64,000 nt of DNA from Trypanosoma brucei (Eukaryota), in NCBI GenBank assembly GCA_000002445.1, contig CM000207.1:1088001-1152000 (forward strand). Reading direction: 5' to 3'. Positions 17,339-53,715 of this stretch are shown in pieces. Position 1 is the stretch's first letter, and every line of letters begins with the position of its first letter. The notes under the pieces are model-generated. The model was not told the origin of the DNA. It made no database searches and saw only the letters and a program-made list of their open reading frames with translations. The position numbers and the translations under genes are program-made.

Positions 17339-17567
17339 ACTTGTGCCCCAATTCTAAAATATGAAATCTTATTATTCAAATGTAAATTATAATGTTTGCT
17401 CACAGTTAGTGGTGTCACAGGTGGCTAACCGCCGTGGCTGAAGGGAGGGGGAACGTAGTTTGCTGCCACACGCCATATATACGTGAAATGCTATGGGTTC
17501 CCTGTGTTTGTGTCTTGATTTGCATTCCCTTATCATTTTGATTAACCACAAAGGCTGTAACGTAAAC

Positions 17568-20500
17568 ATGTCAGTCGGCAAGGTCGCTATGGTGGGTGGC
17601 GGTGGAAGAGTTACTGTTCCGCGAAAATACTTCCGCGCCGCGGTTCGTGGTCTTCAGCACGTCCCGTGGTGGTGTCAAAGCGACGCACGGACCTCAGCCA
17701 CCGGCAAGCATCCGCTAGACGAAGCTCTGAAGTGTGCGGCAACTTTTCAGAGCAGATCATTGAAGCAGTGGGAAGATGCATTGTCTGTTTCCAGTCCTTA
17801 CCGAAGCACCGACCACCTTGCGGCAGGTAAAGCGGTAGTAACAGCACCCGGCACTACCATAACTCTGCAGAGCCTCGCTGATTATGACGGTGGCGAAGCG
17901 GAGGACCAGGAGGAGTCGCACGAGGTGTCTGCGGCGTTTGTTGAAAAACAACAGGCAAAGTTGCACGCCATGTTGCAGCAATGGGTCGCCTACTGTGCAT
18001 TCCACTGTACACGCGCGGAGTTCGCTGCGAGGCAGTCGCTCGTGGCACAGCGACTTCTTCTCTCCCCTCTGGGAGTCTTGCCATCAAGTGCGCACCACCA
18101 AGTGGGTTCGGCTCGTTTGGAGAGGACTTTGCGGCGCCGTGGGGCCCGCGCTTACGTTGATTTGCTCGTTCACCACCAGCTACCCATGCAGCAAAAGCAA
18201 GAATGGGATGTATTGTGCTCGGTTTGGTCCTCCGTGGGGGAAGGACTCCGACGTCAGGGCCTCACCGCCTCTTCAGCAGCTTCCGTTGTAAGACTCCCCT
18301 TTACCCAAGAAGCAGTTGATGAACCGTCGTGGGAAAGAAGTTTGGCTGTATTATCGTGGGCAATGCACTTTAAAGGGGGAAATCAGTTCCATATACCCTC
18401 TTCTGACATTGCCATTGTTCTCCATCAGTACATCCAGAGCTTGGAGGATCGCGTGCAAGGGCCCAACCCTCAACAAATGCCCGTCACAGAGGAACAGGCC
18501 GTTATTCAGCAGCTTCAGCAGTGGTGGAACTCTGCGAGGGAAGCCGAGCAGCGCGACGCAGGGTTGGCGGCGGCATGTGGATTAGACCGTACGGCTTTTA
18601 ACTCAATCCATGTGGAAGGCCGGAAGGTAACCCTCTGTTTATCTGACAAGGAGTTGTCGAAAAGCACTGCTGCGTACGCAGAGTTGCTGTTGCAGGGAAG
18701 GTGGGAGGACGTTCTTGAGCACATTCGACTCGTGGCCACCAATGTCGCTTCCGGTCCTTTCAGTCGCGATAGAGGCGCGGATAGAAGGCAAGGTGACGAT
18801 TTATCCAACCAGCGAGCGGCTGCTGCAGGTGATTGTGACGATGACGAAGGGAAGGAGGAGATTGCACTGATTACGGACGGCGGTTTTGGTGATGTTTTCT
18901 TCAGCATTGGATCGAACGTAACTTCGTGTGGCTCGTCAACTACGGATGCGCTTGTCGCGTTGTTTAACACCCCACGTCCTGTATTTCTGAAAAGCAAAGT
19001 ATGGGCCCGGTCGTCTTCTTCCCCGCTGGGAAAACCACCGCGTGAGTACCTTCTAGCATTGGAGACACCACTTGAGACGGTGTTGCTCCAAAAGCCTCCA
19101 GTGGTTGGGCTTCGGACCCGTGCTTTTGCTACACGGAGTGACGGGGGCACAAGTGGGATAGGATTAATGGGTAAAGTGAGTTGCAGTGATTGTTCGGATA
19201 AGCAGTTGCAAGAGAGTGGGGAGTGTTTAAGGGCGACATCTGCCGCGCTGGTTGAGCTGCGTCGCAAGTTATGGATACTAAGGCAACTTCCCCGGCATCT
19301 TTCGCGTTCATTAGTCCGCTTTGAGGGTGCTGGTTCCTTCATGGTGCCTTATCTATTGCGGTGCCCCGCAAAGGAGCTCCTCCCTTGGTTTCTGCTTAGC
19401 AAAGTTGCCTCAGCACATTCCAGGCATCAGAACCAAGAGAAACTTGAGGAAGCTTTCCGTGACACCCGCTTGCATGTCCTTTATACACTTTTCTTACCGC
19501 ACGCTCATTACGCTGCGTTTCAAGAATACTGTGCAGACCTACTCCTGCAGGTGGGAAGTTTGATTGTACCACTAGATGTTCTTCGAGTGGCAGTACGAGT
19601 TCTTCTTCAACCTCCGTCGTTCGACCACTTCTACGATGTGTTGCAGGGTCGCCGTCTTCCAGTGGAAGTTGACTGCCGCCATTTATGGTCGCGTTCGGTG
19701 GAGTCGTCACATGTAGAGCGAGAGTCTGATTGCTCCACTTCACTGACGCCTTCGTGTTTGAGTCTTTTAAAAGAGTTACAGGGCGACGCTGCCAAGCGGC
19801 AGGCGTTCTTCGTTTGCAAGTCGCATAGCGCGCGTAACTACCACCTCTCTACTTGGATTGAAAGCTGCAGTAAAGTGGAGACGCTATCTGGACTTATAGG
19901 AATTATTGCCCGGGAGGTTAATCTTTATGGGCCGCCACTTCTGTCTCCAGAGGCTGCCGCTGCGCTGCTGACCGCCATTGTCATTCCCCATATTGGTGAA
20001 AGAGGGGGTGCGAAGTATGAAGGCTGTGAACAAGCGTCAGAAATCGGTAATGACACGTTGCGCATGCTAGGAGTTGCATACTTTGTACTACCCAGTGATA
20101 AGGCTTTTGGTGCCGCTCCGTACTTTAAGGGAACTTACAATGAGAAGTACATAATCGATGACGGGTTTGAGTGGACAACCGACTGGGATGGTGCTGAAGC
20201 ACTCCTTGTCGGTCGATCTCTTCGCCGGGTCACTAAATACCCTACCACAACAACAGAATCGTTCTTCCGTGTAGAGTGCTGCTCCACTCAGCAGATGGTA
20301 ACATACCGCGTGCCAAAGCTTCGCTTGCGACTTATGAAGGTTGACCTTGTTGAGGCAATACAATACTTTGAGTGCGGAGTCAAGCGAATCACGCAGGACG
20401 AAGGCGCAAACGACAAAATATGTGGAGAAACAGTGGTGGGCGCGGTAGGGAGACCCGCAGTTGTGGCGTACCACTTGCCTTTTGGCGTTGCAGCGGTTGA

Positions 20501-21332
20501 CAAACCTGCGGGTATGAGCACCACCCTTCATGTGGGGCACCCTCACTTGCTCGATTTTTTGGCAGGGAACCTCCCGTGGAAAGGACCTAGTGCGCCCGTG
20601 CTGTTTCAGCATGGACTTGTTAACCGTATCGACTTGGGTACTAGTGGATTAGTGCTCGTTGCGGATACAGAAGCCTCGCTTGAGGAGGCTCGCCGTGCGA
20701 GTATTGTGGAGCGTTGCGTGGAAAAGGTTTACCGGGCGCTTGTTTTGCATTGTCCCCCACCGATCTCCCGCATAGATACGTCAGAGTGTTGGTACCTCAA
20801 TCCATGTGGGATCATAATGTGCGACGTCCTTGCAAATGGCGCCGACTTTTCTCTTCAGATCGCTGCGTACAATTCCTCGAAGGGAGGCGCCTTGCCTGTA
20901 GGGGCGATGGATCGGCGGTCAGCCACAACAACATATCGTGTATTGCAGTACTTTCCGAGGAGTGGCGTCTATTACTTGGAAATTCATTTACACACGGGAC
21001 GTCGTCACCAGATCCGGCAGCACTTTGCTCGGTTATGTCATCCATTGTTGGGTGACGGCCGTTACAGTCGGCGAGCGCAGGTAGTGGGGGAGGAATTCGG
21101 TTTGCAGCGGCCTGCACTCCATGCAGTCCGTGTTACACTTACCCCACAACATGGAACATCTGCCAAACCACGGGGTGGCGTCGTGGCTCCGCGTGTGGGT
21201 GATGCCGATTACGATGAATATTGCGGCAACGGAGGGGGAAAGACCGTAGTGGAGTGCCCAGTTCCGGAGGACATGCGGCTGACTCTAAAAATGTTGCGGG
21301 AGCGTGAGGACCCGGTAGGGTTGGGTGCTTAA
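17568..21332 (+). CDS. RluA-family pseudouridine synthase with a roughly 950-aa N-terminal extension
   Basis: C-terminal region carries HGLVNRIDLGTSGLVLVA (the HRLD..TSG catalytic-Asp motif), KVYRALV, and TGRRHQIRQHFARLCHPLLGDGRYS (the RluA/RsuA C-terminal signature). Start taken at the in-frame ATG 17568 (MSVGKV). The N-terminal 900 aa have no recognisable domain. Confidence 0.8.
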   Translation: MSVGKVAMVGGGGRVTVPRKYFRAAVRGLQHVPWWCQSDARTSATGKHPLDEALKCAATFQSRSLKQWEDALSVSSPYRSTDHLAAGKAVVTAPGTTITLQSLADYDGGEAEDQEESHEVSAAFVEKQQAKLHAMLQQWVAYCAFHCTRAEFAARQSLVAQRLLLSPLGVLPSSAHHQVGSARLERTLRRRGARAYVDLLVHHQLPMQQKQEWDVLCSVWSSVGEGLRRQGLTASSAASVVRLPFTQEAVDEPSWERSLAVLSWAMHFKGGNQFHIPSSDIAIVLHQYIQSLEDRVQGPNPQQMPVTEEQAVIQQLQQWWNSAREAEQRDAGLAAACGLDRTAFNSIHVEGRKVTLCLSDKELSKSTAAYAELLLQGRWEDVLEHIRLVATNVASGPFSRDRGADRRQGDDLSNQRAAAAGDCDDDEGKEEIALITDGGFGDVFFSIGSNVTSCGSSTTDALVALFNTPRPVFLKSKVWARSSSSPLGKPPREYLLALETPLETVLLQKPPVVGLRTRAFATRSDGGTSGIGLMGKVSCSDCSDKQLQESGECLRATSAALVELRRKLWILRQLPRHLSRSLVRFEGAGSFMVPYLLRCPAKELLPWFLLSKVASAHSRHQNQEKLEEAFRDTRLHVLYTLFLPHAHYAAFQEYCADLLLQVGSLIVPLDVLRVAVRVLLQPPSFDHFYDVLQGRRLPVEVDCRHLWSRSVESSHVERESDCSTSLTPSCLSLLKELQGDAAKRQAFFVCKSHSARNYHLSTWIESCSKVETLSGLIGIIAREVNLYGPPLLSPEAAAALLTAIVIPHIGERGGAKYEGCEQASEIGNDTLRMLGVAYFVLPSDKAFGAAPYFKGTYNEKYIIDDGFEWTTDWDGAEALLVGRSLRRVTKYPTTTTESFFRVECCSTQQMVTYRVPKLRLRLMKVDLVEAIQYFECGVKRITQDEGANDKICGETVVGAVGRPAVVAYHLPFGVAAVDKPAGMSTTLHVGHPHLLDFLAGNLPWKGPSAPVLFQHGLVNRIDLGTSGLVLVADTEASLEEARRASIVERCVEKVYRALVLHCPPPISRIDTSECWYLNPCGIIMCDVLANGADFSLQIAAYNSSKGGALPVGAMDRRSATTTYRVLQYFPRSGVYYLEIHLHTGRRHQIRQHFARLCHPLLGDGRYSRRAQVVGEEFGLQRPALHAVRVTLTPQHGTSAKPRGGVVAPRVGDADYDEYCGNGGGKTVVECPVPEDMRLTLKMLREREDPVGLGA

Positions 21333-22432: not shown

Positions 22433-22514
22433 TTTGGGAGAAGTAAACAGAAGCAAGGCTGTTCGTCTTCGGCGGTACTGTTCACATTTGGTTACATTCA
22501 CGTTTGCTCGGAAC

Positions 22515-23930
22515 ATGCAGCGTAATTTAACGAAATTGAGCGCAGCAGCATTCTATGAGTTCGTTGACAATAATTTCCTCAACAACAAACGACCCCCCGT
22601 TCCCGGCGGGTCATGGACGGTTGAGGTGCTACGTAATAAAAGTCTCGCCGATTTGCAGCACATATGGTTCCTGCTTTTGAAGGAGCGAAACATGTTAAAG
22701 TCCATGAAGGAACACTATTTGCGGCACCAAGAAGAACTGGGTGCAATGCCTGCCCCCTCGAGGCTGAAAATGATCGATGAATCGATGCGCAACATTAAGC
22801 GTGTCGTGAAGGAGCGTGATGAGGAAGCAACGGCCCGAGCAGTGGAGATATTTAAGGAAAGGCTGAAACGTGGCATTTATCGTTATCCACCGGGTCCTCC
22901 TCCTCCCCCTGGGGCGCATGACAAAACAAGTGTGGTGAAGGTGGAACTGAGTTGCTATGTTGAGGAGGAGCGCCTGCGTGAACTTTTCGGTCGTTATGAT
23001 GTTTTTGAACCACATAAAGGTATCGTGCGAGTCGAGCTGAAGCTTCCGGATGAGGTGTTGAAACAGAAGGAGGAAGCGGAGCAACTTTGGACGCAGTACA
23101 TGGCGGAATGTAGTGATGTGAAGGCATACCATCAGTGGTCAACGGCAGCACCCAGCGCGTACGACTATACTGAAGTGGAACTGGCCCCGGGGATATTTGC
23201 CAACGATGCCATTTCAGATAAAGGTGCTAAACACAGTGGTGACACTGAAACTCATGAGGGGGTAATTGTCGCAGCACGCGTGCCCGTTCCACCCCCCAAG
23301 GAAAAACAGCCTCCACCAAAGAACCCACTCGAGCGGCTTAAAGCTGAACGGCGGTCATACCTCGCACGCACTACCATCCAACTTGGTTATTTCCCAAATG
23401 TGACGCTACCCCCGCCGCGGTATGAGACTGTTGAGGCTGTGCCGCGTCCGGTACACCCAGATGAGATCGAGGGACCGTGGGAGGCATACATAACCTACGA
23501 CCGGGAGGATGGCTTATCGTACGCGCAGTCATTGGGCATAACTACTATCGGTGTAGCCACTGTGCTTGGCTTGACGGAGCACGTGCGCGAGCCTCAGCCG
23601 TACGCTGTGGTGGATCCCGTGTACTGCGAGGCGCTACGGCGTGAAAGGGCCCGTGAGGAGACACTCATGAAATGGCCACACGTCCCTGAATGGAAGTATG
23701 AGTATAGCACCTATACTCGGAAACATTTGGCTGATATTGTGCAGTACAACTACACGAATGTTGTTGACTATGTGGACCGTGAGGTTCTTCTCACTGGAAA
23801 GTCGGTCTGGGAATGCCCCATTCACATTGATCATACATGCGGTGGAAGCAAGACAGTGCCACCTCACGCCAAAAAACCGGTTCGGTACATGGATGCGGGC
23901 ATTGCAAACGTGGGCGTTACTGACATTTAG
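22515..23930 (+). CDS. Mitochondrial ribosomal protein L47 / uL29m-domain protein with a long C-terminal extension
   Basis: FYEFVDNNF…WTVEVLRNKSLADLQHIWFLLLKERNMLKSMKE matches the MRP-L47 family core (L.E.LR.KS..DL..LW..L.KE.NML). ATG 22515 (MQRNLTKLSAAAF) is chosen over the ORF-track start at 22434, which is adjacent to a pyrimidine tract. Confidence 0.55.
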   Translation: MQRNLTKLSAAAFYEFVDNNFLNNKRPPVPGGSWTVEVLRNKSLADLQHIWFLLLKERNMLKSMKEHYLRHQEELGAMPAPSRLKMIDESMRNIKRVVKERDEEATARAVEIFKERLKRGIYRYPPGPPPPPGAHDKTSVVKVELSCYVEEERLRELFGRYDVFEPHKGIVRVELKLPDEVLKQKEEAEQLWTQYMAECSDVKAYHQWSTAAPSAYDYTEVELAPGIFANDAISDKGAKHSGDTETHEGVIVAARVPVPPPKEKQPPPKNPLERLKAERRSYLARTTIQLGYFPNVTLPPPRYETVEAVPRPVHPDEIEGPWEAYITYDREDGLSYAQSLGITTIGVATVLGLTEHVREPQPYAVVDPVYCEALRRERAREETLMKWPHVPEWKYEYSTYTRKHLADIVQYNYTNVVDYVDREVLLTGKSVWECPIHIDHTCGGSKTVPPHAKKPVRYMDAGIANVGVTDI

Positions 23931-24032
23931 AGGCGTTTGCTTACAGGCGGGGTGCGGGCAGAAACTTCTATTTGTGTTGGTGCTATTAGGAATTTCAATG
24001 GCTAGGGCGAAAGCTGTGTTTATCGAGTGCAA

Positions 24033-24057
24033 TTTTTTTTGGGGGGGGAGGGGCGGC
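24033..24057. repeat. T8-G8-A-G4-C-GG homopolymer junction
   Basis: aattttttttggggggggaggggcgg, read directly. G-rich enough for a G-quadruplex. Confidence 0.85.
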
Positions 24058-24206
24058 ATCGCGCGCAGCCGGTTTACAGTGCACGATTGACTGGGTGTAA
24101 ACAGCACTAAAGCTTATTTCTCTCTCTCATGGACTGTGAGCTTCTCTGTATCTCTTTCTTTATTTTTTTCTCCGTTTGTTGAAGGGAGCTGGACGTGTTC
24201 CTCTTC

Positions 24207-24224
24207 TGTGTGTGTGTGTGTGTG
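24207..24224. repeat. (TG)9 microsatellite
   Basis: tgtgtgtgtgtgtgtgtg, read directly. Confidence 0.9.
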
Positions 24225-24334
24225 TTTCATTTGATCGACTTTGTGTCTTCCTTTTATTAATATTTTACGGCAGTTTACACCCGTCTGAGCAGAAAGGGGC
24301 TGTTTATAGGAGGTAAAAACCATTTTGGAGGAAC

Positions 24335-27300
24335 ATGGAGCAGCAGGTCTCTAACCGGGGAAGTAACTCTGACCCCCCAGCGTCTTCTCAGTGCGAGGAA
24401 GAGACCAAACAACATGAAGTCTCGGAAACGACTTTTTGCGGAAGTGAGTTTGCAGAAGGCAGTGGTGGAACTTTGTTACAGACGGTGGCACCCGATGCCC
24501 CCAGTGTGAGGAGTTGTGGCAGCCATCAAGTCCCGAGCTCAAGTAAAGGTGCTCCCTTCGCCTCACGGGCGCAGGCGCTGATGTCAGGCGCTGCCAGCGT
24601 CGTGGCGCCACTTTCAGTTCACTCTGGTAGTCAACACACATCCCGAAAGGGAAACACCCACAACTTAGCGCGACTCGCGGTGAAGCACAATTTATATGCC
24701 GTACAACTGGATGGTGACTCCGGCGGCATTGAAATGCAAGCCGCTAGCCAATATCTCCTCCGGGCGGTAACCACACGAGAGAAGTACAAATCAGTGGATA
24801 AGGGACAGAAGGAGGGAACAGGGCGCTTGGTGCCTCCGGTTGTTTTCTCCTTTGAAACTGGTGTCGCCCAGTTCACGGACCAAAAGACCGAAGTTTTACC
24901 ATGGGAGCAGTTCTACGACGACGTGATAGAGTTGTGTGCCACGATGCAGCATCCAGATTGCCGCCGGGCGTGTTCGCAGCGTCTACAAGTGCTGGAAGAG
25001 AAGTATAACCTGTACAAATTGTGCAGCAGCAACGTTGAGAACCCTGACCACCACCGCCACGATGTTGGTGTATTTTCCGATTGTACAAAAGTTGATAATA
25101 GCGTGTATCTGAGTTGCATGGTGAATTCGGAGTTGCTGCGTGAATACATCCAGGACAAGGTGGAGTATTGTGGATCGGATGAGGTGCGGTATTCGGCGGA
25201 TAAAACTGAGGTGCACACACTGAGTACAACATGCGATCAGCTCGGATTTACGGAGGTTGAGCAGCTAACTATCGAGGGTCTGGGGTTGTCACCACCAAAT
25301 GAAAAGCAACGTTACCATTACGATCCGCTTGATCTTGAACTGAACCGCACTGGACGCAACTGCGCGGAGCTATTGCAACTCTTCCTCACACACAATACTT
25401 TGAATAAGGGGAAATACTTTGCAGAAATTGTGAAACCCACACTGTCCGAGAATGAGCAACGAATGCGAAACCCACAGGCAACTGAATGTATAGTTGAACT
25501 ATGTGGTACTTCTGCCGAAGATTGGGAGCAGCTGGCCGCGTGGGCACAGGAGCATAATCTGCTACGAATGTGGCATAACCGCTGGTTCGTTGCCTTACCC
25601 CGGAGACGGATACGAAGCGATTCAACAAAGGATGCACTTGAGAACCACCAGCAACACTTGGAAAATATTTTCCTACCACTGTTTACAGCAACACTCGCTC
25701 CCGAAGACCCGAAGAACGCTTCTATTGTGGCGCTGCTCCAGAACCTTGGTGGGTTTGTGATTGTGTCCGATGAAGAGGAGCGCAACTCCACTTTCGAGCG
25801 CAAGCTGAGGCGACCCGTTGAGGTGCCATGGAGTGAGAATGTTTGCGATCTCTACTTCGCTTACCATGTATGGGCAAATCTTTGTTCCCTCAACGCTTTG
25901 CGCCGTCGCAAGGGCCTCAATACTTTGCAGCTACGTGCCTTCGCCGGGAATCGTGACGGTCAAATAGATGTATTGGTTTATTCTTACCTACTGTGCGACA
26001 GCCTTGTTAACGGTGTTCTCCTAGAGCATAATCCTGTGCTGCAGTATCTTTATGGTGCCGGAAAGATCGGACTGGTCATGATGCCACTGTGTAACAATGG
26101 GATGGGGCTCCCGTATATGCAGAACCCCTTTCCTGTTTTCTTTCGCCGCGGGTTGCTCGTGACACTGACGACCAACCAACCTTTGTTGTTTCACCATTCT
26201 AAAGAACCTCTCATCGAGGAATACGGCACTGCGAGCAAACTGTTTCAGCTATCTGGCACTGATGCATGTGAGATAGCGTTAAACTCCGTGATTGTGTCGT
26301 CATTTCCCGCCGATGTTAAGGCACTGTGGTTGGGGGATTCATTCCTTCAGGAAGGCATTCAGGGGAACATGCTAGAGTTTAGCAAAGTTCCGACGTGCCG
26401 TCTTGTGTTGCGACAGGAACTGTGGCAAACGGAATTGAACATTATTCATCAGGCCGCGGTGCGAAATACGAGGGGAAAGCGAGGGGCGTTTCCTCTCCCG
26501 ACACTGCTGTCCACCCCTCCCCCTCTCATGGCTTCTGGGAGCCATGCTGGGGATTCGACCGAAGTTGAGCCAAGCGGCGTAACTTTACAACAAGCCGTTA
26601 CAATGATGCAGTCAAGTCAAATGCCGTTCCTCGCTCGCGATCCACATACGGACTTTCCTCGCGTTGTCTTCTTAGGCCCCCTCGAACGTGATCCTTCTGA
26701 TACGCTGGTTGTGACTCTGTTGCATCGTGCGTTACAGCTGCGCTCGCAGTATGTTCGGCAGCACAACATACGTGATGTAGATGGGAGAGTGCTGCGGTCG
26801 GACGATATTGAACATGCATTCCGCCGTGATGATACATTTGATGAGGACGAGTGGATGTTCAAAACCGTCGAAGGTGTTGTTGTGCCACACGAGGTTCATC
26901 AGATTCCCCGTCTCCCAAAAGATATGTTTCACTTTGACGACTTTCGTCAACATGTGCAGGAACTGCGCGCCATGCTAGAGAATGCGCACGTACGCAACTT
27001 CGCGACGCGGCGATTGAATTTGCTTGAGCGCAAGTTTATGTTACACCTTGCGGTTAACCGCAGTCTTGAAGCGGGGACAACGGCCAGCAAGGCTTCTCAG
27101 AATCGTGACTTCTATCAAGCAACAAAAGTGGACAATAATGTTCGTATGGAGTCCGGTATGACTGCTCGGCAGCTGCTGAACTTCATCGTTTCCAAGGCTA
27201 ATAATAATGGTGATGACATTGTGGCCCACCAAGAGGGAAAAGAACCGCAAACGTTGCGGCAACTGCTACAGGAGTTAAATATTTCTCCGAGCACACTAAC

Positions 27301-29407
27301 TGTAGATGACCTCAATGTGCAAGTCGACACAACACTTGGTGTTGGGAGCGCACAATATACACCTGGCGGCCGTGATGTCTTGTGTACACTACTGCTGAAC
27401 ACAGACAACCAAATGAAGGGACGCTACTTCGCTGAGTTGACAAAGCTAACCTTTGAGAACTTCGAGCATGACCGTTTCACCTTCACCGAAAACAGGCTAC
27501 CGATTTATGGCGCGAGCCCCAATGAATGGGGGTTGCTCTCTGATTGGTTCGACACACATGGTATGGCATCAGTACACAACCGATGGATGGTGCAGATCCC
27601 GCGCATTTACGGTTATCTGCGCGAGTGTGGAAAGGTCCAAAGTTTTACTGAGTACATCGAAAACATATTCAAACCACTATGGACTGTTTCACTCCATCCA
27701 AGCAAAGATCCCCGCTTGTTCCACTTCCTTAACCACATCTCTGGCTTCGATTGCGTTGAAGACGAACGAAGACACGACATACCGCTCAACAATGCAACGA
27801 AACCGCCTCATGAGTGGACGACCGAGGAAGAGCCTCCATACAACTACTACATGTATCATGTGTGGGCAAATATTTACTCACTGAACGAGTTTCGTCGACG
27901 CCGGAAGTTCTCGACGTTTACATTTCGACCAAGCTGTGGAGAAACAGGCCCTGTGGAACACCTCATCGGTGGGTTTTTACTTGCCAACGCTATTAATTAT
28001 GGCGTTACTCTCGCTGATGATACCCCACTGCAGTATCTTTTTTACCTCGCCCGCATTGGGGTAACGGTAAGCCCGCTGAGCAACAACACGAAGGTGCTCG
28101 GGTACCTGGACAACCCGTTTCCGACGTTCTTTCGTCGCGGTCTTAATGTTTCCCTCGGCACGGACAGCCCACTTATGTTTCATCACACCCAGGAGCCACT
28201 ACTAGAGGAGTACTCCATTGCCTCAAAGGTGTGGAAGCTTTCGCCCAATGATATGTGTGAGATTGCCCGCAACAGTGTGCTTCTTTCAGGTTTTGATGCT
28301 GCCTTTAAACGTGAGCGACTAGGGGATCTGTTTTTTCTTTCAAGTAGCAGAAGCAACGACGCGTCACACACACACCTATCCGACATCCGTGTCGCGTACC
28401 GTTTCGAGACCTACCACGCAGAGATTGCTTTTCTGGAGATGATCTCCACCCTTAATTTCCCAAAGGCACTTCTTACTCTGAGTGAAGAGAGGGCACTGGA
28501 AGCTGATTTTCTTGAGGCGGTAAAGAAAAAGGAAAAGCAGCTTGGGTGTATCATAGAAGTTAAGACTGAGGAGGAGGACATTAAAAGGTTAGAGCAAAGT
28601 CGTGCCGCTCTACTGCGACAGGTTCGAGAGGCTGAAGATACTGTTGAGGAGTTACGCCGGCAGAACAAACAGCTAACGGAGAAGCTTGCTGAAGAGCGGG
28701 CGAGGGACCAACACGCACAGCAGATGCGTCGCAAGGGACTTAAGGAGCGTGTTGTGGGTATTTCAGATCCGGAGGGGAGACGGCAGACATCGTCGTCAAA
28801 CGCCGATATGTCGAGTGATCACCAGCCCTCCCTCGAAATTTCTGTTTTGGAACAAGTGGCGAAGGAAGAAACCAACGGTGAAGATGCCACAGCTGCTGGA
28901 CAAAGTCAGCATCTAGGGGGTGCGAAAGTGGGGCTGACCGCTTTGTCGCCCACTGCTTTGGAGGACACCTCACCGAGGAGTGCTGGCTTCATCTCTAGTG
29001 GGAATGTAGCTGATTTAGACGACAATTTGGATACTGCTGCCACAACGAGTGCACTAGTTGGTATGCTAGAGAGTATGTGGAAAGAAAAACCTGCTGGGGC
29101 CTCTCACTCCGGCGGGCATACCGTTACGGGCGGAGATGCGAGCAGTACCTTCCCACCAATTAATGTTGATGCGGTTACGCTCAGTGAAAGAAAACCGTCA
29201 GGGGCCAGTGGCAGCACCACTAAGCGGGGACCACCACCACCGAGGCGGACCTCCGCGAATTCTGCCTTTGTATTCCCTAAACCTTCCGGGGAAGGGGGTT
29301 CGCATCGCGCGTCACTTCAGGGGTTTGCTAATGTTCAGCAAGCCGCCCGTGAACAGGAAGCAAAAGAGACGGGGAGTTCGCACCGAAGCAGTGAAAGAGG
29401 AGTTTAG
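24335..29407 (+). CDS. Tandem AMP-deaminase-like protein (two AMPD/adenosine-deaminase-fold domains, both with metal ligands substituted), followed by a C-terminal coiled coil and an S/T/G/P-rich tail
   Basis: Domain 1 (approx aa 240-640): KVDNSVYLSCM, GKYFAEIVKP, NRWFVALPR, ENIFLPLF, LRAFAGNRDG, MMPLCNNGMG, TLTTNQPLLFHHSKEPLIEEYGTASKLFQLSGTDACEIALNSVIVSSF. Domain 2 (approx aa 920-1330): KVDNNVRMESGM, GRYFAELTK, NRWMVQIPR, ENIFKPLW, FRPSCGETGPVEHL, VSPLSNNTKV, SLGTDSPLMFHHTQEPLLEEYSIASKVWKLSPNDMCEIARNSVLLSGF. These align to the canonical AMPD motifs VDTHxH, GKYFA, VRW.VQ.PR, ENIF.PLF, RPHCGEAG, MSPLSNN, SLSTDDPLQFHFTKEPL.EEYS.A…KLS..DMCE.ARNSV. Confidence 0.85.
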   Translation: MEQQVSNRGSNSDPPASSQCEEETKQHEVSETTFCGSEFAEGSGGTLLQTVAPDAPSVRSCGSHQVPSSSKGAPFASRAQALMSGAASVVAPLSVHSGSQHTSRKGNTHNLARLAVKHNLYAVQLDGDSGGIEMQAASQYLLRAVTTREKYKSVDKGQKEGTGRLVPPVVFSFETGVAQFTDQKTEVLPWEQFYDDVIELCATMQHPDCRRACSQRLQVLEEKYNLYKLCSSNVENPDHHRHDVGVFSDCTKVDNSVYLSCMVNSELLREYIQDKVEYCGSDEVRYSADKTEVHTLSTTCDQLGFTEVEQLTIEGLGLSPPNEKQRYHYDPLDLELNRTGRNCAELLQLFLTHNTLNKGKYFAEIVKPTLSENEQRMRNPQATECIVELCGTSAEDWEQLAAWAQEHNLLRMWHNRWFVALPRRRIRSDSTKDALENHQQHLENIFLPLFTATLAPEDPKNASIVALLQNLGGFVIVSDEEERNSTFERKLRRPVEVPWSENVCDLYFAYHVWANLCSLNALRRRKGLNTLQLRAFAGNRDGQIDVLVYSYLLCDSLVNGVLLEHNPVLQYLYGAGKIGLVMMPLCNNGMGLPYMQNPFPVFFRRGLLVTLTTNQPLLFHHSKEPLIEEYGTASKLFQLSGTDACEIALNSVIVSSFPADVKALWLGDSFLQEGIQGNMLEFSKVPTCRLVLRQELWQTELNIIHQAAVRNTRGKRGAFPLPTLLSTPPPLMASGSHAGDSTEVEPSGVTLQQAVTMMQSSQMPFLARDPHTDFPRVVFLGPLERDPSDTLVVTLLHRALQLRSQYVRQHNIRDVDGRVLRSDDIEHAFRRDDTFDEDEWMFKTVEGVVVPHEVHQIPRLPKDMFHFDDFRQHVQELRAMLENAHVRNFATRRLNLLERKFMLHLAVNRSLEAGTTASKASQNRDFYQATKVDNNVRMESGMTARQLLNFIVSKANNNGDDIVAHQEGKEPQTLRQLLQELNISPSTLTVDDLNVQVDTTLGVGSAQYTPGGRDVLCTLLLNTDNQMKGRYFAELTKLTFENFEHDRFTFTENRLPIYGASPNEWGLLSDWFDTHGMASVHNRWMVQIPRIYGYLRECGKVQSFTEYIENIFKPLWTVSLHPSKDPRLFHFLNHISGFDCVEDERRHDIPLNNATKPPHEWTTEEEPPYNYYMYHVWANIYSLNEFRRRRKFSTFTFRPSCGETGPVEHLIGGFLLANAINYGVTLADDTPLQYLFYLARIGVTVSPLSNNTKVLGYLDNPFPTFFRRGLNVSLGTDSPLMFHHTQEPLLEEYSIASKVWKLSPNDMCEIARNSVLLSGFDAAFKRERLGDLFFLSSSRSNDASHTHLSDIRVAYRFETYHAEIAFLEMISTLNFPKALLTLSEERALEADFLEAVKKKEKQLGCIIEVKTEEEDIKRLEQSRAALLRQVREAEDTVEELRRQNKQLTEKLAEERARDQHAQQMRRKGLKERVVGISDPEGRRQTSSSNADMSSDHQPSLEISVLEQVAKEETNGEDATAAGQSQHLGGAKVGLTALSPTALEDTSPRSAGFISSGNVADLDDNLDTAATTSALVGMLESMWKEKPAGASHSGGHTVTGGDASSTFPPINVDAVTLSERKPSGASGSTTKRGPPPPRRTSANSAFVFPKPSGEGGSHRASLQGFANVQQAAREQEAKETGSSHRSSERGV

Positions 29408-30031
29408 CTCAGTAGTAGGGCGTTGGCTGCGTTGGACCCCTACTTTGCTTCACCTATTTTATCCTGTTTGTCTCATGCTGTTCCTATCACGTCCAGGAGC
29501 TTTTACTATTTCAATGTGGCAAAGGGGCGCTTCTGTGGTCGTATTGCCGGCATATGAATGGCGCAGACAGAGAGTCTGCTGTGTAGGTGTGTGAAGAGCA
29601 TTTATTTATGTACAAAGTTTGCAAGGGGGAGGGCGTTTGTGTGAACACTTTTGTTTTGTTTTACACTTTACTCCCTTGCGGTAGAAGCACGGGTCCACGC
29701 CCCCCTGCGTGGTGGTTATGTCAAGATGGTGTACGCACATGAGGCTTAAGTTTTAGTGCATTCTCCTTATGTGGCTCGATGGTTGGCCTGCTTCCATTAC
29801 CGATTTGTTTCAATTTTACTTTCAGCTCTGACAGGAATTAATCTCCCTTTGTAAGTGCTCCAGGAGAGACAACACCGGTACGTGTACCTTAAAATAGGCA
29901 GGCGTATCCCATAGTGCCCTCGTGTCTGAGGCACATTAGCAGTAGTACACTTTGTGAGGATACGACACGGGAGGGGAACAAAGAAAGTACAGAAAGTAGT
30001 TTTAGTAAGTTTAGATACTGGGATCGGGAAG

Positions 30032-45102: not shown

Positions 45103-46584
45103 TCATAACAGTAAAAATAACGCCAGTGGCGTTTGGAGGTTGTTCACACGGCTTCGGATAGCTCGTCTTCGCGTCGCGGCCACGCATGCATCTCCATTCC
45201 ACTCACATCCCATTTCCGCTTTTAGGCCGGCACATGTTTGCTCCCGCTTGTAATCGTTGCATTCAAGTAAAGGGGAACTGTCCCCCCCGTCTCCTTCGTC
45301 GTTTTTTACTGCGGCACCAACGACGGACTCCGATATGCCTTCTCTATTACCGTTGCTTTGTTCGAGTCTGGGTGAGCCCGGCCATTTATTTCTACCCTCC
45401 GCACCTCTGCTTCCTGAGTGAGGGCTGCCACCCCCCCTGCCGGGTCTGATTTTTGTGTGTTTCGTGTTTAAGGCCATTATTTCGTCTTCTAACTCACTTA
45501 ACCTCGCGTCGATGGCGCTTAGTTGGTCTATAGCATCGGCTGCCGCCTTCATTTTCTCCAGCCACGGTAGGGTCGGATTATTTCGCTTGACGTTGCTTAC
45601 ACTGTATTGCACGCAGCGTCCCTGCCCGGTTTTGATGATTCCAGTACAACCTGTGGCCAAATTACCCTCAAACTTGCCTAGCACTGTCAAATCCATGCCC
45701 CTTGTACTCGAGGGCCGAAGCCGCTTGAGAAGCAGATTCATTGCGTCCGAAAGACTTTTCCTCGAAAGCTCGGCATTACTGCCAATTTTCTCGCATTGGT
45801 GTTTGAGATATCCCCATCTTTCTTCTCCAGCCTGACTGGGTATCCACGTGTCGCTATTGCCCCCTTTTTCGCATTCCGCGCAGCAACCCTGGTCGCTTTC
45901 AACGGCACTTCCCGATGCACCACATAGACACAATAAGTCAATACTCAATGCCAAACCAGCCAAACTTCCTGCAAATATCCCTCGGCCGCAAACATCCTTG
46001 CGACCGTATGTTCCCCTCATTACCTCCCCATTTTGTTGTCCGGACCCATAGAGTGCCTCTATCAGATTTTTTTCTATTGATGTCTCCTTCAATATTCTCC
46101 ATAATCCATCATTATCTTTCATGCAATCCTCGGCACGTTCTGCGGCATTTGCTACCTTTCTCTTATCTTCTTTACTCAAGGCACTCCCGGTCCATACCGC
46201 ATATTTGTCCTTTTCAGGACCCCCAAGCTTGCTCCTTGCTCCTGTCCAAAATTTCCGGTGCCCCTCATTTGTTTCGTGAGAATGTTTTCTGTCGTCCGCT
46301 ATTTCTTCCCAATCTTTAGTTGCTCTCTCCAAATCAGAAAAACTCTGATACTCTACGGCCAAGCTTATAGCTCCAATGTTTGCTGCTGTGTCTTCGACTC
46401 GCGCAAGAAGTGCCGCGTGGTCTTCGGAGTTGCTCGCCAAATTAATTAAACCACACAACGCCCTAAAGTCGCCCTCATTTTCTGCACCCTTTGCAACTAG
46501 TGCCGCGCGCGGAATCAAAGGCAGCGTTACTATCGACACAAAAATAGCCCACCTCCCGATCAACATGCGCACTTTTTCAACCAC
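45103..46584 (-). CDS. Variant surface glycoprotein (VSG)-family gene, 493 aa
   Basis: N-terminal signal peptide (MLIGRWAIFVSIVTLPLIPRAALVA). VSG-type N-terminal motif ENEGDFRALCGLINLA. Internal DLLCLC motif. Four-Cys C-terminal module (CNDYKREQTCAGLKAEMGCEWNGDAC) and a hydrophobic C-terminus (TPLALFLLL*). Sits in an AT-rich context unlike the upstream core. Confidence 0.7.
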   Translation of the reverse strand: MVEKVRMLIGRWAIFVSIVTLPLIPRAALVAKGAENEGDFRALCGLINLASNSEDHAALLARVEDTAANIGAISLAVEYQSFSDLERATKDWEEIADDRKHSHETNEGHRKFWTGARSKLGGPEKDKYAVWTGSALSKEDKRKVANAAERAEDCMKDNDGLWRILKETSIEKNLIEALYGSGQQNGEVMRGTYGRKDVCGRGIFAGSLAGLALSIDLLCLCGASGSAVESDQGCCAECEKGGNSDTWIPSQAGEERWGYLKHQCEKIGSNAELSRKSLSDAMNLLLKRLRPSSTRGMDLTVLGKFEGNLATGCTGIIKTGQGRCVQYSVSNVKRNNPTLPWLEKMKAAADAIDQLSAIDARLSELEDEIMALNTKHTKIRPGRGGGSPHSGSRGAEGRNKWPGSPRLEQSNGNREGISESVVGAAVKNDEGDGGDSSPLLECNDYKREQTCAGLKAEMGCEWNGDACVAATRRRAIRSRVNNLQTPLALFLLL

Positions 46585-52296: not shown

Positions 52297-53715
52297 CTAA
52301 AAGATAAGAATAAGAGATAAGAATAATAACAATATAAACCCCCACGTTTCCATATTCAAATGAGTAAGTCCATCATTATTTACCTCAGTATTATCACCTT
52401 CGCTGTCACCCTTTACTCGGCTACTTTTCCATAGCTCTGCATCACCACCTAGTTTCACCTCAAGAAATATTTCCTCGGCCTCGTGTTGATACTCTTCCAA
52501 CTCATGAAGATGACTGTCAGCTTCTTTTGAATATTTATCCATTTCTTGCAGTTGCTCGGTAGCGTTAGTAAGACGATTGTACCATGGAATTCCACCATTT
52601 TCAAGTGTGTACTTGTAACTGACACATGTGAATCCAGCAGTATGACCCGTGCATGTCCGATTTTCGTTTTTATCAGTTCTCACATAACCAAAAATACCCT
52701 TCACCTGATATTTATCCTGTTCCAAATTCACTAAGGCATCAAACTGAGCTAATGCACTTTTCAAAGTCTTTACATTCGATGCAACGTTTTTGTACACACA
52801 AGCTTTACTAATCACATCCCATGCCTCAGTGTAATTGTATGTTATGTTGTCTGGGCTGCAGGGGCTGCTATTGGCCTCACAGTAATTTGCCATCATTGTC
52901 CAACTTCCATTTTTTGGTCTTCTTATTTCATCTTTACAAGGACAATTGAACCCATTATAAACACTATCACTATATTTGCCCTTACCGCTCTCTTCTTTTT
53001 TTTTATCTTCATTATCTTCATTATCTTCTTCCTCTTTCTCGTCTCTTTTCTGCCTCATATCTTCAGTCACATTTATAGCCTCTCCCACACATAGACAGAA
53101 AAAGTCATTGATTAGTGTCTTTCCAACCAGCTTGTCTCCATAAGAACCGCAACTCGTGCCTGCATTATCAATACTATTGAACAGCAGTGACTTGTTTCCC
53201 CTCATGGCTTTCTCTAGAGTTTTATTCTCATTTCGTGCCACATCCACAGCGTCTCCATACACAGCTTTCAACATATTGTCTTCGGCAGAACGACTTGCAT
53301 TTAACGCTTTTGTCCTATTCACTTCTATTTCTTCCTTCAGCTTTTTCGCCTTTTCAAGCAGTTGTATCATCAACTGATATGCTGTCGTGCTGTTAGATGA
53401 ATTGCTCGAGCCTTTATTACTTCCAGCGGCCCCCACCACACTGACCATTTCCTCCAACTCATTCAGAATATTAGCTTCTTTCTCACGGTTCTTGAAAGAG
53501 GGTTGTGGTGCTTCTGCCTGCGTAATTCGGTAAATTTTGCACAGTGTCTCGAACTCACCGACGTTATGGTATTTGTAACTATCGTCGATGTAATCCGTAA
53601 TGCTTCCCCAGTCAACCATATCAGGCCGCCATTTGTACGACCCCATATCTCCCTGAAAGGAAGGAGATAAAACAGCTGCAAAAAGCCCAACAGCGAACAC
53701 TATTTCACACCTCAT
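52297..53715 (-). CDS. VSG-superfamily surface glycoprotein, 472 aa
   Basis: Signal peptide MRCEIVFAVGLFAAVLSPSF. NVGEFETLCKIYRI. INDFFCLC motif. Many N-glycosylation sequons. Acidic low-complexity insert (EKEEEDNEDNEDKKKEE). Hydrophobic C-terminus WGFILLLFLSLILIF*. Confidence 0.7.
   Translation of the reverse strand: MRCEIVFAVGLFAAVLSPSFQGDMGSYKWRPDMVDWGSITDYIDDSYKYHNVGEFETLCKIYRITQAEAPQPSFKNREKEANILNELEEMVSVVGAAGSNKGSSNSSNSTTAYQLMIQLLEKAKKLKEEIEVNRTKALNASRSAEDNMLKAVYGDAVDVARNENKTLEKAMRGNKSLLFNSIDNAGTSCGSYGDKLVGKTLINDFFCLCVGEAINVTEDMRQKRDEKEEEDNEDNEDKKKEESGKGKYSDSVYNGFNCPCKDEIRRPKNGSWTMMANYCEANSSPCSPDNITYNYTEAWDVISKACVYKNVASNVKTLKSALAQFDALVNLEQDKYQVKGIFGYVRTDKNENRTCTGHTAGFTCVSYKYTLENGGIPWYNRLTNATEQLQEMDKYSKEADSHLHELEEYQHEAEEIFLEVKLGGDAELWKSSRVKGDSEGDNTEVNNDGLTHLNMETWGFILLLFLSLILIF

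What the first reader, a model, noticed from the sequence alone, without database searches (positions are those of the whole stretch)
24335..29407. 1690-aa protein with two tandem AMP-deaminase domains, both missing their zinc ligands (double pseudo-AMPD)
Both halves align across the whole AMPD catalytic core but carry substitutions at the canonical metal and catalytic positions. In domain 1, HxH becomes SVY (KVDNSVYLSCM), RPHCGEAG becomes RAFAGNRDG, and STDDP becomes TTNQP. In domain 2, HxH becomes NVR (KVDNNVRMESGM), RPHCGEAG becomes RPSCGETG (His lost, Glu kept), and STDDP becomes GTDSP (first Asp kept, second Asp becomes Ser). Substrate-pocket and fold motifs (ENIF.PLF, SPLSNN, FHHxxEPLxEEYxxASK, DxCEIAxNSV) are strongly conserved in both. 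That pattern points to retained folding or nucleotide binding without deamination. The duplication is old, since the halves have diverged from each other. A coiled coil and a low-complexity tail follow. This fits a structural, scaffolding or AMP-sensing role better than an enzyme.
Basis: partly seen in the sequence, partly recalled or inferred. Interest (0 to 1): 0.7.

Follow-up and report, generated by a model that had tools for sequence, protein, structure and literature searches.

The report
Doubly dead tandem AMP deaminase, trypanosome flagellum
This Trypanosoma brucei gene (Tb927.9.7180) encodes a flagellar-rod protein built from two AMP-deaminase-like domains that have both lost the zinc and catalytic residues, so it is almost certainly not an enzyme, although the remodelled pocket of its second domain is still tightly conserved.

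Summary
Window 24335-29407 (+) is an intact 1690-aa ORF, T. brucei Tb927.9.7180. Both halves match Pfam AMP_deaminase over nearly its full length (354 and 530 bits). The AlphaFold2 model superposes on human and plant AMPD (TM 0.85-0.88).

At the seven zinc or catalytic positions (canonical H-H-H-E-H-D-D):
- Domain 1 reads S-Y-F-N-N-N-Q.
- Domain 2 reads N-R-S-E-Y-D-S.

The loss is lineage-wide, but the two domains differ. Domain 1's former site drifts. Domain 2's replacement residues are nearly fixed, and domain 2 is 38% invariant across trypanosomatids. A ribose-positioning loop is deleted in domain 2, so the substrate pocket is not simply retained.

The duplication predates the radiation of Euglenozoa. 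The common form is dead domain 1 plus live domain 2. The Leishmania orthologue of the other flagellar-rod AMPD (Tb927.9.9740) has that form and is collinear with this protein through the C-terminal coiled coil.

A 2024 preprint lists Tb927.9.7180 among paraflagellar rod (PFR) proteins but treats it as a metabolic enzyme.

Best reading: a non-catalytic, rod-anchored paralogue, acting as scaffold, regulator or ligand sensor. It is a new variant of a known kind, of moderate interest.

The parts
24108..24255 (+). 5' intergenic polypyrimidine tracts and a (GT)n run upstream of the ATG. This is a likely trans-splicing signal region.
   Evidence: Read directly from the sequence. The function is inferred from general trypanosome gene structure.
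24335..29407 (+). Complete ORF of 1690 aa plus stop. This is T. brucei Tb927.9.7180, annotated 'adenosine monophosphate deaminase, putative'.
   Evidence: The gene ID was fixed through the orthologue accessions in Table S1 of bioRxiv 10.1101/2024.04.19.590284.
24335..24841 (+). N-terminal region, aa 1-169. It is Ser/Ala-rich and poorly conserved, except for the last ~50 residues that lead into D1.
24842..26455 (+). Domain 1, aa 170-707. AMPD fold with all seven zinc or catalytic residues replaced (S256, Y258, F536, N539, N559, N614, Q615). The former active site drifts among orthologues.
26456..26803 (+). Inter-domain linker, aa 708-823. It is partly disordered (model pLDDT below 50 at aa ~715-763) and includes the N-terminal helical lead-in of D2.
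26804..28438 (+). Domain 2, aa 824-1368. AMPD fold, highly conserved (38% of positions invariant across trypanosomatid orthologues), with the zinc-free signature N-R-S-E-Y-D-S.
27137..27145 (+). D2 former HxH site: N935-V936-R937. Arg is present in 29 of 30 orthologues.
27326..27358 (+). D2 remodelled ribose loop, aa ~998-1008. A 4-residue deletion removes the equivalents of At R459, F460, D461, F463 and N464. The equivalent of Y467 is kept.
27932..27943 (+). D2 S1200-C-G-E1203. The third zinc His has become Ser (30 of 30 orthologues). The catalytic Glu is kept (30 of 30).
27998..28000 (+). D2 Y1222, which replaces the catalytic His (At H681). Tyr is present in 30 of 30 orthologues.
28163..28168 (+). 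D2 D1277-S1278. The zinc-ligand Asp is kept (28 of 30). The second Asp has become Ser, Gly or Ala.
28559..28789 (+). C-terminal coiled-coil helix, aa 1409-1485. It is conserved in orthologues and also present in live-D2 relatives.
28790..29404 (+). Disordered S/A/G/T/P-rich tail, aa 1486-1690. It contains one short conserved helix at aa 1568-1580 (nt 29036-29074, L..E.LW motif).

Best explanation
What it is. The gene encodes a catalytically dead, paraflagellar-rod-resident paralogue of a tandem AMP deaminase.

Origin.
- The ancestral euglenozoan protein already had a zinc-less N-terminal AMPD domain fused to a live C-terminal one. In kinetoplastids and diplonemids a coiled coil follows.
- In the lineage leading to trypanosomatids, one copy (Tb927.9.7180) lost catalysis in the second domain too.
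- A collinear paralogue (the Tb927.9.9740 group) kept a canonical site.

How it works.
- Shown or strongly inferred: it cannot bind the catalytic zinc or deaminate AMP by the canonical mechanism. It folds as two packed AMPD barrels. It carries a conserved coiled coil that could dimerise it or tie it into the rod lattice.
- Inferred: it acts non-enzymatically within the rod's adenine-nucleotide module (adenylate kinases, live AMPD, adenylosuccinate lyase). Domain 1 is then a structural partner. Domain 2's fixed zinc-free pocket (N-R-S-E-Y-D) would serve as a ligand-binding or protein-docking site.
- Most likely role: a regulatory or scaffolding subunit, possibly partnering the live paralogue. 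Arg937 may occupy the space of the lost metal, next to the retained Asp1277 and Glu1203.

Confidence by step: about 0.9 that it is not a canonical AMP deaminase; about 0.8 that it is a PFR component (this rests on the literature); about 0.5 for the full statement, including a non-enzymatic regulatory or scaffold role that uses the D2 pocket.
For: - Two full-length AMPD profile matches.
- Residue-level alignment to solved AMPDs shows 7 of 7 (D1) and 5 of 7 (D2) essential residues replaced.
- Each of these residues is individually essential in PfAMPD (bioRxiv 10.1101/447789).
- The AF2 model has pLDDT 82.5 and pTM 0.78 over 1191 residues spanning both domains, which implies confident inter-domain packing. 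The best PDB matches are AMPD2 and At AMPD, TM 0.85-0.88.
- The loss is lineage-wide. D2's replacements are fixed (S 30/30, Y 30/30, E 30/30, R 29/30). D2 is 38% invariant against 13% for D1, whose former site drifts.
- D2 keeps 73 of 91 columns that are at least 93% conserved in 83 canonical AMPD domains. The losses cluster at the catalytic residues and the ribose loop.
- Phylogeny: euglenozoan D2 clade bootstrap 100, D1 clade 78, this family's D2 plus P0033 100.
- The Leishmania orthologue of Tb927.9.9740 (the cluster containing CBZ13110.1) has the signature dead D1 | HHHEHDD. It is collinear with this protein over 1416 aa, including the coil.
- PFR membership of both AMPDs, adenylosuccinate lyase and adenylate kinases comes from bioRxiv 10.1101/2024.04.19.590284.
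- Coiled coil.
Against: - There is no biochemical, interaction or knockout data for this gene. Its PFR localisation rests on one preprint's list.
- The ribose loop is deleted and the At R476 equivalent is lost, which argues against canonical AMP binding.
- The T. brucei sequence of Tb927.9.9740 was not examined. Its live status is inferred from the Leishmania orthologue.
- In the preprint, deletion of the 'AMP deaminase' had little effect on growth or Rod1 localisation. The text does not give that gene's ID; the only PFR AMPD it names by ID is Tb927.9.9740.
- The strongly fixed D2 pocket could instead mean a retained, non-canonical catalytic activity.
Confidence: 0.5

Rival explanations
1. Prozyme-type partner. 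The dead tandem protein hetero-oligomerises with the live PFR AMPD paralogue (Tb927.9.9740), through AMPD oligomer interfaces and/or a heteromeric coiled coil. It then activates, inhibits or positions that enzyme, as trypanosomatid dead paralogues do for AdoMetDC and deoxyhypusine synthase.
For: - Live and dead paralogues have the same architecture, including the coil, and are 39% identical over 1416 aa.
- Both are listed as PFR proteins.
- AMPDs are tetramers (PMC13277832).
- Trypanosomatid prozyme precedents exist (PMC6221367 and PMC3663545, abstracts).
- The ancestral dead-D1/live-D2 fusion is itself an intramolecular version of this idea.
Against: - No interaction data exist.
- The live paralogue already carries its own dead D1, so it may not need a further partner.
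- The preprint places Tb927.9.9740 in the cytoplasm as well as the PFR.
- Deletion of the AMP deaminase gave little phenotype.
Confidence: 0.25
2. Domain 2 is still an enzyme with altered, metal-independent chemistry or a different substrate. It would use the conserved Glu1203, Asp1277, Tyr1222 and Arg937.
For: - The replacement residues are fixed more tightly than the domain average, unlike the drifting D1 site.
- The Glu and one Asp are retained.
- Metal-independent members of the amidohydrolase superfamily exist (for example LigI). This is my own knowledge and was not checked here.
Against: - Five of seven residues that are each individually essential in PfAMPD are replaced.
- The ribose loop is deleted.
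- No zinc-free deaminase of the ADA/AMPD branch appeared in the PDB fold matches.
Confidence: 0.1
3. Purely architectural rod protein. Both barrels are inert building blocks, and there is no ligand or partner-specific pocket.
For: - It is in the PFR list.
- It has a coiled coil and a disordered tail.
- D1's site drifts.
- Orthologues persist in species with a reduced PFR.
Against: D2's former active-site residues are nearly invariant, and D2 is 38% invariant overall. That is much more than a simple spacer would need.
Confidence: 0.15
4. A decaying gene or pseudogene, or an annotation artefact.
For: The catalytic residues are lost in both domains.
Against: - The ORF is an intact 1690 aa.
- Orthologues of similar length occur in Trypanosoma, Leishmania, Leptomonas, Phytomonas and Porcisia, and in a syntenic metagenomic kinetoplastid locus (MRP-L47 upstream).
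- D2 is under strong constraint.
- A tagged protein has been localised, according to the preprint.
Confidence: 0.01

Closest known systems
Canonical eukaryotic AMP deaminase (EC 3.5.4.6; human AMPD2 8hu6, Arabidopsis FAC1 2a3l)
   Same: Both domains share the same fold and give a full-length profile match. Many fold motifs are kept, including ENIF.PLF, FHH..EPL.EEY..A.K and D.CE.A.NSV.
   Different: The zinc ligands and catalytic residues are replaced: 7 of 7 in D1 and 5 of 7 in D2. The ribose loop is altered. The domains are in tandem. The protein has a C-terminal coiled coil and sits in the flagellar rod.
Tandem AMPD of Euglenozoa with dead D1 and live D2. Examples: the Leishmania orthologue of Tb927.9.9740 (P0075 cluster, CBZ13110.1), Diplonema papillatum AMPD (P0072) and Euglena gracilis EG_transcript_451 (P0225).
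   Same: The architecture is collinear: N-terminal lead, D1, linker, D2, and in kinetoplastids and diplonemids a coiled coil. The D1 and D2 lineages are shared. The Tb927.9.9740 group is also in the PFR.
   Different: Those proteins keep H-H-H-E-H-D-D and the canonical ribose loop in D2. Here D2 reads N-R-S-E-Y-D-S and carries a loop deletion.
Trypanosomatid 'prozymes' (dead paralogues of AdoMetDC and deoxyhypusine synthase)
   Same: It is a catalytically dead paralogue, kept under selection alongside a live paralogue in the same organisms (abstracts).
   Different: No complex or activation has been shown here. The dead protein is a double-domain, structure-anchored molecule.
Yeast AMPD-like proteins YJL070C and YBR284W. 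I recall these as being described as lacking key catalytic residues and failing to rescue AMPD deficiency. I could not verify this in the held literature.
   Same: They are AMPD-family members without the catalytic set.
   Different: They are single-domain fungal proteins with no flagellar context and arose independently.
A second double-dead tandem AMPD family found here (D2 signature N-[HF]-Q-E-H-N-x; P0071, P0076, P0078, P0080, P0082, P0085)
   Same: It is a tandem AMPD with both sites zinc-less. Its D2 clade is sister to the clade containing this family.
   Different: It has a different set of fixed replacements, and no coiled coil was detected in the two members scanned, P0076 and P0080. 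The organisms were not identified.

Membership tests
AMP deaminase family (Pfam PF19326; fold level) | Near full-length match to the AMP_deaminase profile | tested here: met
   D1 scores 354 bits over profile positions 101-627 of 630. D2 scores 530 bits over positions 77-625 of 630.
AMP deaminase family (Pfam PF19326; fold level) | Amidohydrolase (beta/alpha)8 barrel that superposes on solved AMPD structures | tested here: met
   The AF2 model has pLDDT 82.5. Foldseek gives 8hu6 TMt 0.85-0.88 and 2a3l TMt 0.87.
AMP deaminase as an enzyme (EC 3.5.4.6) | Four zinc ligands (At H391, H393, H659, D736) | tested here: not met
   D1 has S, Y, F, N (0 of 4). D2 has N, R, S, D (1 of 4). The residue roles come from bioRxiv 10.1101/447789.
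AMP deaminase as an enzyme (EC 3.5.4.6) | Catalytic Glu, His and the second Asp of STDDP (At E662, H681, D737) | tested here: not met
   D1 has N, N, Q (0 of 3). D2 has E, Y, S (1 of 3).
AMP deaminase as an enzyme (EC 3.5.4.6) | Ribose-positioning loop HRFDKFNxKYNP (At F463/Y467) | tested here: not met
   In D1, F463 and Y467 are both Leu. D2 has a 4-residue deletion and keeps only the Y467 equivalent.
AMP deaminase as an enzyme (EC 3.5.4.6) | Measured AMP to IMP conversion and zinc content | not testable with these tools
   This needs recombinant protein.
Pseudoenzyme / dead paralogue | Clear homology to an enzyme family, with the catalytic residues lost | tested here: met
Pseudoenzyme / dead paralogue | Maintained by purifying selection across species | tested here: met
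   Orthologues occur across Trypanosomatidae. D2 is 38% invariant and its replacement residues are fixed.
Trypanosomatid prozyme-type system | A catalytically competent paralogue in the same organism and compartment | tested here: inconclusive
   The Leishmania orthologue of PFR protein Tb927.9.9740 has a canonical D2. The T. brucei sequence itself was not retrievable.
Trypanosomatid prozyme-type system | A physical complex with the live paralogue that modulates its activity | not testable with these tools
   No interaction data exist, and no multimer prediction tool was available.
Paraflagellar rod component | Localisation to the PFR | not testable with these tools
   This rests on the literature only. 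Tb927.9.7180 is in the 151-protein TrypTag-derived PFR list (bioRxiv 10.1101/2024.04.19.590284, Table S1).
Paraflagellar rod component | A coiled-coil segment typical of many rod proteins. This feature is supportive, not defining. | tested here: met
   AF2 gives a helix over aa 1409-1485 at pLDDT up to 98, and a heptad pattern is present.

The most novel reading that the evidence does not exclude
The zinc-free pocket is a functional state of the AMPD fold that has evolved more than once. Family D2 (N-R-S-E-Y-D-S) converged on nearly the same solution as the ancestral euglenozoan D1 (S-R-N-E-H-D-D): a small polar residue, then Arg, then a small polar residue, with Glu, an aromatic residue and Asp retained. 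In this reading Arg stands in for the metal and the pocket now senses an adenine or guanine nucleotide. Tb927.9.7180 would then be a rod-anchored energy-charge sensor, or an allosteric partner, that tunes the live flagellar AMPD and so the local ATP/ADP/AMP balance for beating.
Probability: 0.2. Interest if true: 0.7.

Novelty: new variant of a known kind. Interest (0 to 1): 0.5.

Why it matters
The paraflagellar rod is essential for trypanosome motility and is thought to host local adenine-nucleotide homeostasis. One of its two 'AMP deaminases' is currently counted as a metabolic enzyme, yet the sequence says it cannot be one. That changes how the rod's metabolic inventory should be read.

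The gene also adds a candidate to the trypanosomatid habit of pairing live enzymes with dead paralogues.

It also offers a natural stepwise series of enzyme death:
1. Live D2 that already carries the loop deletion.
2. The intermediate N-H-A-E-F-D-A.
3. The fixed N-R-S-E-Y-D-S.

That series makes it possible to test what a zinc-free AMPD barrel does. The practical consequence is re-annotation: Tb927.9.7180, LmjF.04.0280 and their orthologues should not be modelled as AMPD activity in purine-salvage or drug-target work.

Tried and rejected
- Literature. Full-text searches for Tb927.9.7180, for the Leishmania and T. cruzi gene IDs, for 'AMP deaminase' with 'pseudoenzyme', and for Tb927.9.9740 with guessed old IDs found nothing that describes this protein as a pseudoenzyme. 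The guessed old IDs were wrong.
- The Arabidopsis AMPD structure paper is not held. Ligand-contact residues were therefore taken second-hand from bioRxiv 10.1101/447789.
- The yeast YJL070C/YBR284W description could not be verified.
- T. brucei paralogues. Neither word-indexed homologue search returned one. The live paralogue was reached only through the Leishmania cluster.
- AF2 model coordinates are not exposed. I could not measure the Arg937-Asp1277-Glu1203 geometry, and I could not compare D1:D2 packing with the AMPD homodimer.
- Pseudogene or artefact: rejected on conservation and synteny.
- Antisense and overlapping ORFs (25318-25803 -, 23634-24107 -, 29136-29594 +) have no Pfam match and are taken as spurious.
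- The first bootstrap run had a distance-cap bug that produced NaN values. It was redone correctly.
Full report
**1. Observation**

The window carries an intact ATG-initiated ORF at 24335-29407 (+) encoding 1690 aa.

- Pfam AMP_deaminase (PF19326) matches the whole protein at 878 bits in two stretches.
- Scanned separately, aa 170-707 scores 354 bits and aa 824-1368 scores 530 bits. Each covers almost the entire 630-position profile.
- The halves are 33% identical to each other (E=7e-79).

I used the seven positions defined for Arabidopsis AMPD: zinc ligands H391, H393, H659, D736; catalytic E662 and H681; and D737 of STDDP. These roles are cited in bioRxiv 10.1101/447789.

| Domain | Residues at the seven positions | Retained |
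|---|---|---|
| Canonical | H-H-H-E-H-D-D | 7 of 7 |
| D1 | S256-Y258-F536-N539-N559-N614-Q615 | 0 of 7 |
| D2 | N935-R937-S1200-E1203-Y1222-D1277-S1278 | 2 of 7 |

The same preprint reports that single Ala substitutions at each of these seven positions inactivate Plasmodium AMPD in a yeast complementation assay.

- It missed the fourth His.
- SPLSNN is MPLCNN in D1.
- It overstated conservation of the substrate pocket (see section 4).

**2. Identity and context**

- The protein clusters at more than 90% identity with T. brucei TREU927 XP_827074.1 and T. b. gambiense XP_011776581.1. It differs from TREU927 at 6 non-catalytic residues.
- Table S1 of bioRxiv 10.1101/2024.04.19.590284 lists Tb927.9.7180 with orthologues PWU88491.1, CAC22679.1 and KPA75470.1. 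These accessions sit in the clusters of my best T. cruzi, L. major and Leptomonas hits. The gene is therefore Tb927.9.7180, and the L. major orthologue is LmjF.04.0280.
- That preprint places it among 151 paraflagellar rod (PFR) proteins derived from TrypTag. The same list holds a second AMPD (Tb927.9.9740), adenylosuccinate lyase and adenylate kinases. The preprint treats the AMPDs as metabolic enzymes.
- I found no paper that notes the dead sites.
- Genomic setting: the gene lies in a same-strand gene array. MRP-L47 lies upstream and an ADH_N-like gene downstream. Polypyrimidine tracts precede the ATG. Antisense and overlapping ORFs have no family match.

**3. Fold**

- AlphaFold2 on aa 185-1375, with 31 homologues in the alignment, gives mean pLDDT 82.5 and pTM 0.78.
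- For a 1191-residue two-domain chain with about 10% disorder, this pTM implies that the two barrels are predicted to pack in a defined way.
- The best PDB matches are AMPD2 (TM 0.85-0.88 normalised to the target) and Arabidopsis AMPD (0.87).
- The C-terminal model shows one long helix over aa 1409-1485, with pLDDT 96-98 over aa 1420-1469. The heptad a/d residues are I-L-R-L-V-A-V-L-N-L-L. The tail is disordered apart from a short conserved helix at aa 1568-1580.

**4. The two dead domains are not alike**

Across 30 trypanosomatid-type orthologues, D2's replacement residues are nearly fixed:

| D2 residue | Orthologues sharing it |
|---|---|
| S1200 | 30 of 30 |
| E1203 | 30 of 30 |
| Y1222 | 30 of 30 |
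| R937 | 29 of 30 |
| D1277 | 28 of 30 |
| N935 | 24 of 30 |

D1's equivalents vary widely, and Leishmaniinae have insertions there. Overall, D2 is invariant at 38% of positions against 13% for D1.

I also compared both domains with 91 columns that are at least 93% conserved in 83 canonical AMPD domains.
- D2 keeps 73 and D1 keeps 56.
- D2's losses are concentrated at the five catalytic positions.
- They also hit the loop HRFDKFNxKYNP. A 4-residue deletion removes the equivalents of R459, F460, D461, F463 and N464. The Y467 equivalent is kept.
- The At R476 equivalent is lost too.

D2 therefore has a remodelled but strongly constrained pocket. D1 looks like a relaxed structural partner.

**5. 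Evolution**

An exhaustive phmmer search of 1.84 billion representative proteins found 3058 hits. I scored the best 150, plus named hits, with a profile built from 29 canonical AMPDs and read the seven-residue signature of each domain. Tandem AMPDs are common and fall into four classes:

| Class | D1 | D2 | Examples |
|---|---|---|---|
| A (this family) | dead, variable | N-R-S-E-Y-D-[SGA] | P0001-P0032, P0066-P0068, P0070 |
| B | dead, typically S-R-N-E-H-D-D | canonical H-H-H-E-H-D-D | Diplonema papillatum (P0072), Euglena gracilis transcripts, the PhM-4 dataset |
| C | live | H-H-H-x-H-D-N | P0035, P0079, P0081, P0083, P0089 |
| D | dead | N-[HF]-Q-E-H-N-x | P0071, P0076, P0078, P0080, P0082, P0085 |

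- PhM-4 is the free-living prokinetoplastid Papus ankaliazontas, which was fed on another kinetoplastid. The source of those sequences is therefore one kinetoplastid or the other.
- A neighbour-joining tree on 532 profile columns with 100 bootstraps supports these clades:

| Clade | Bootstrap |
|---|---|
| All euglenozoan-type D2 | 100 |
| All euglenozoan-type D1 | 78 |
| Family A D2 plus the syntenic metagenomic P0033 | 100 |
| The above plus the live-D2 protein P0069 | 56 |
| Class D D2 | 100 |

- The duplication therefore predates the euglenozoan radiation, and D1 was already zinc-less then. D2 died later, in this paralogue only.
- An apparent series exists:
  1. P0069 has H-H-H-E-H-D-D but already carries the loop deletion.
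  2. P0033 has N-H-A-E-F-D-A and has MRP-L47 upstream, as in the window.
  3. Family A has N-R-S-E-Y-D-x.
- The order of these steps rests on weak support at the P0069 node.
- Arg at the second His position recurs in dead AMPD domains: 71 of 136 altered domains, and 31 of 62 outside family A. These counts are not phylogenetically independent. The recurrence suggests, but does not show, that Arg substitutes structurally for the metal.

**6. The live paralogue**

- The 90% cluster of hit P0075 contains CBZ13110.1. The PFR preprint gives that accession as the L. major reciprocal-best orthologue of Tb927.9.9740.
- P0075 has a dead D1 (A-L-T-K-R-E-S), a canonical D2 (H-H-H-E-H-D-D), the intact ribose loop and a C-terminal coiled coil.
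- It aligns collinearly with the window protein over 1416 residues at 39% identity, including the coil.
- The coil is also present in the live-D2 relatives P0069, P0073 and Diplonema P0072. It therefore predates D2's death.
- The rod thus appears to hold one live tandem AMPD and this doubly dead one.

**7. Mechanism**

Shown or strongly inferred:
- There is no canonical zinc site or deaminase chemistry in either domain.
- The AMPD fold is retained, with packed domains.
- A coiled coil is conserved.
- D2 is under strong purifying selection.

Taken from the literature:
- The protein resides in the PFR.

Inferred:
- The protein works non-enzymatically in the rod's adenine-nucleotide module. D2's fixed pocket would act as a ligand or partner site, and the coil would serve for dimerisation or lattice attachment.

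Rivals:
- A prozyme-like partnership with the live paralogue is the most attractive specific version, but it is untested.
- Residual non-canonical catalysis by D2 cannot be excluded, given how tightly the new residues are fixed.
- A purely inert scaffold fits D1 but not D2.

**8. Novelty and score**

- The gene and its localisation are known, and dead paralogues are a known theme in trypanosomatids.
- What appears unreported:
  - This 'AMP deaminase' is doubly dead.
  - Dead-D1/live-D2 tandems are the euglenozoan norm.
  - D2's death went through identifiable intermediates to a fixed zinc-free constellation that resembles the ancestral D1 solution.
- I rate it a new variant of a known kind, with interest 0.5.

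Noticed in passing
window 40000-64000: The gene array changes strand at about 40-45 kb. GC falls from ~0.50 to ~0.40 and the GC skew changes sign. Minus-strand VSG genes follow: 45103-46584 (VSG_B, 248 bits) and 52297-53715 (partial VSG_B, 84 bits). This is an internal or subtelomere-like VSG array next to housekeeping genes.
   Followed up: partly
window 22434-23930 and locus L003 1020-2603: MRP-L47 lies directly upstream of the tandem AMPD gene in T. brucei. The same is true in a distant metagenomic kinetoplastid contig that carries the intermediate-signature protein P0033. This conserved micro-synteny supports orthology.
   Followed up: partly
window 17493-21332: An unusually long (1279 aa) protein whose only recognisable domain is a C-terminal RNA pseudouridine synthase (PF00849, aa 1000-1179).
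   Followed up: no
window 24200-24228: A (GT)n dinucleotide run sits within the 5' intergenic region, between polypyrimidine tracts and just upstream of the AMPD start codon.
   Followed up: no
window 29036-29074 (aa 1568-1580): A short predicted helix with a conserved L..E.LW motif lies inside the otherwise disordered, unconserved tail. It may be a docking motif.
   Followed up: partly
proteins P0071, P0076, P0078, P0080, P0082, P0085, P0087, P0212, P0221: A second, separate family of doubly dead tandem AMPDs has the D2 signature N-[HF]-Q-E-H-N-x. It includes a 7575-aa EukProt protein (P0078) with the tandem at its C-terminus. The organisms were not identified.
   Followed up: partly
protein P0224 (EukProt transcript), D1 aa 24-715: This D1 domain has the signature H-R-H-E-H-D-D. 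Only the second His is changed, to Arg, and the other six residues are intact. It may be a snapshot of the first step of domain death. Arg at this position recurs in several dead-domain lineages.
   Followed up: partly
proteins P0035, P0079, P0081, P0083, P0089, P0098: These tandem AMPDs have the opposite polarity: a live D1 and a D2 altered only at Glu and/or the last Asp (H-H-H-[EAQ]-H-D-N). One is filed in NCBI under an 'archaeon' MAG, but its neighbours (WD40, 2OG-Fe(II) oxygenase) look eukaryotic. Contamination of the MAG is likely.
   Followed up: no
literature: bioRxiv 10.1101/2024.04.19.590284, Table S1: Adenylosuccinate lyase (Tb927.9.7550) is also listed as a PFR protein. The rod may therefore hold several steps of the purine-nucleotide cycle alongside adenylate kinases.
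   Followed up: no
window 24335-29404 versus TREU927: The window protein differs from the TREU927 reference at 6 residues (A46T, V55A, S72G, A102T, M386I, T1521A, written window residue first). The window therefore comes from another T. brucei strain.
   Followed up: yes
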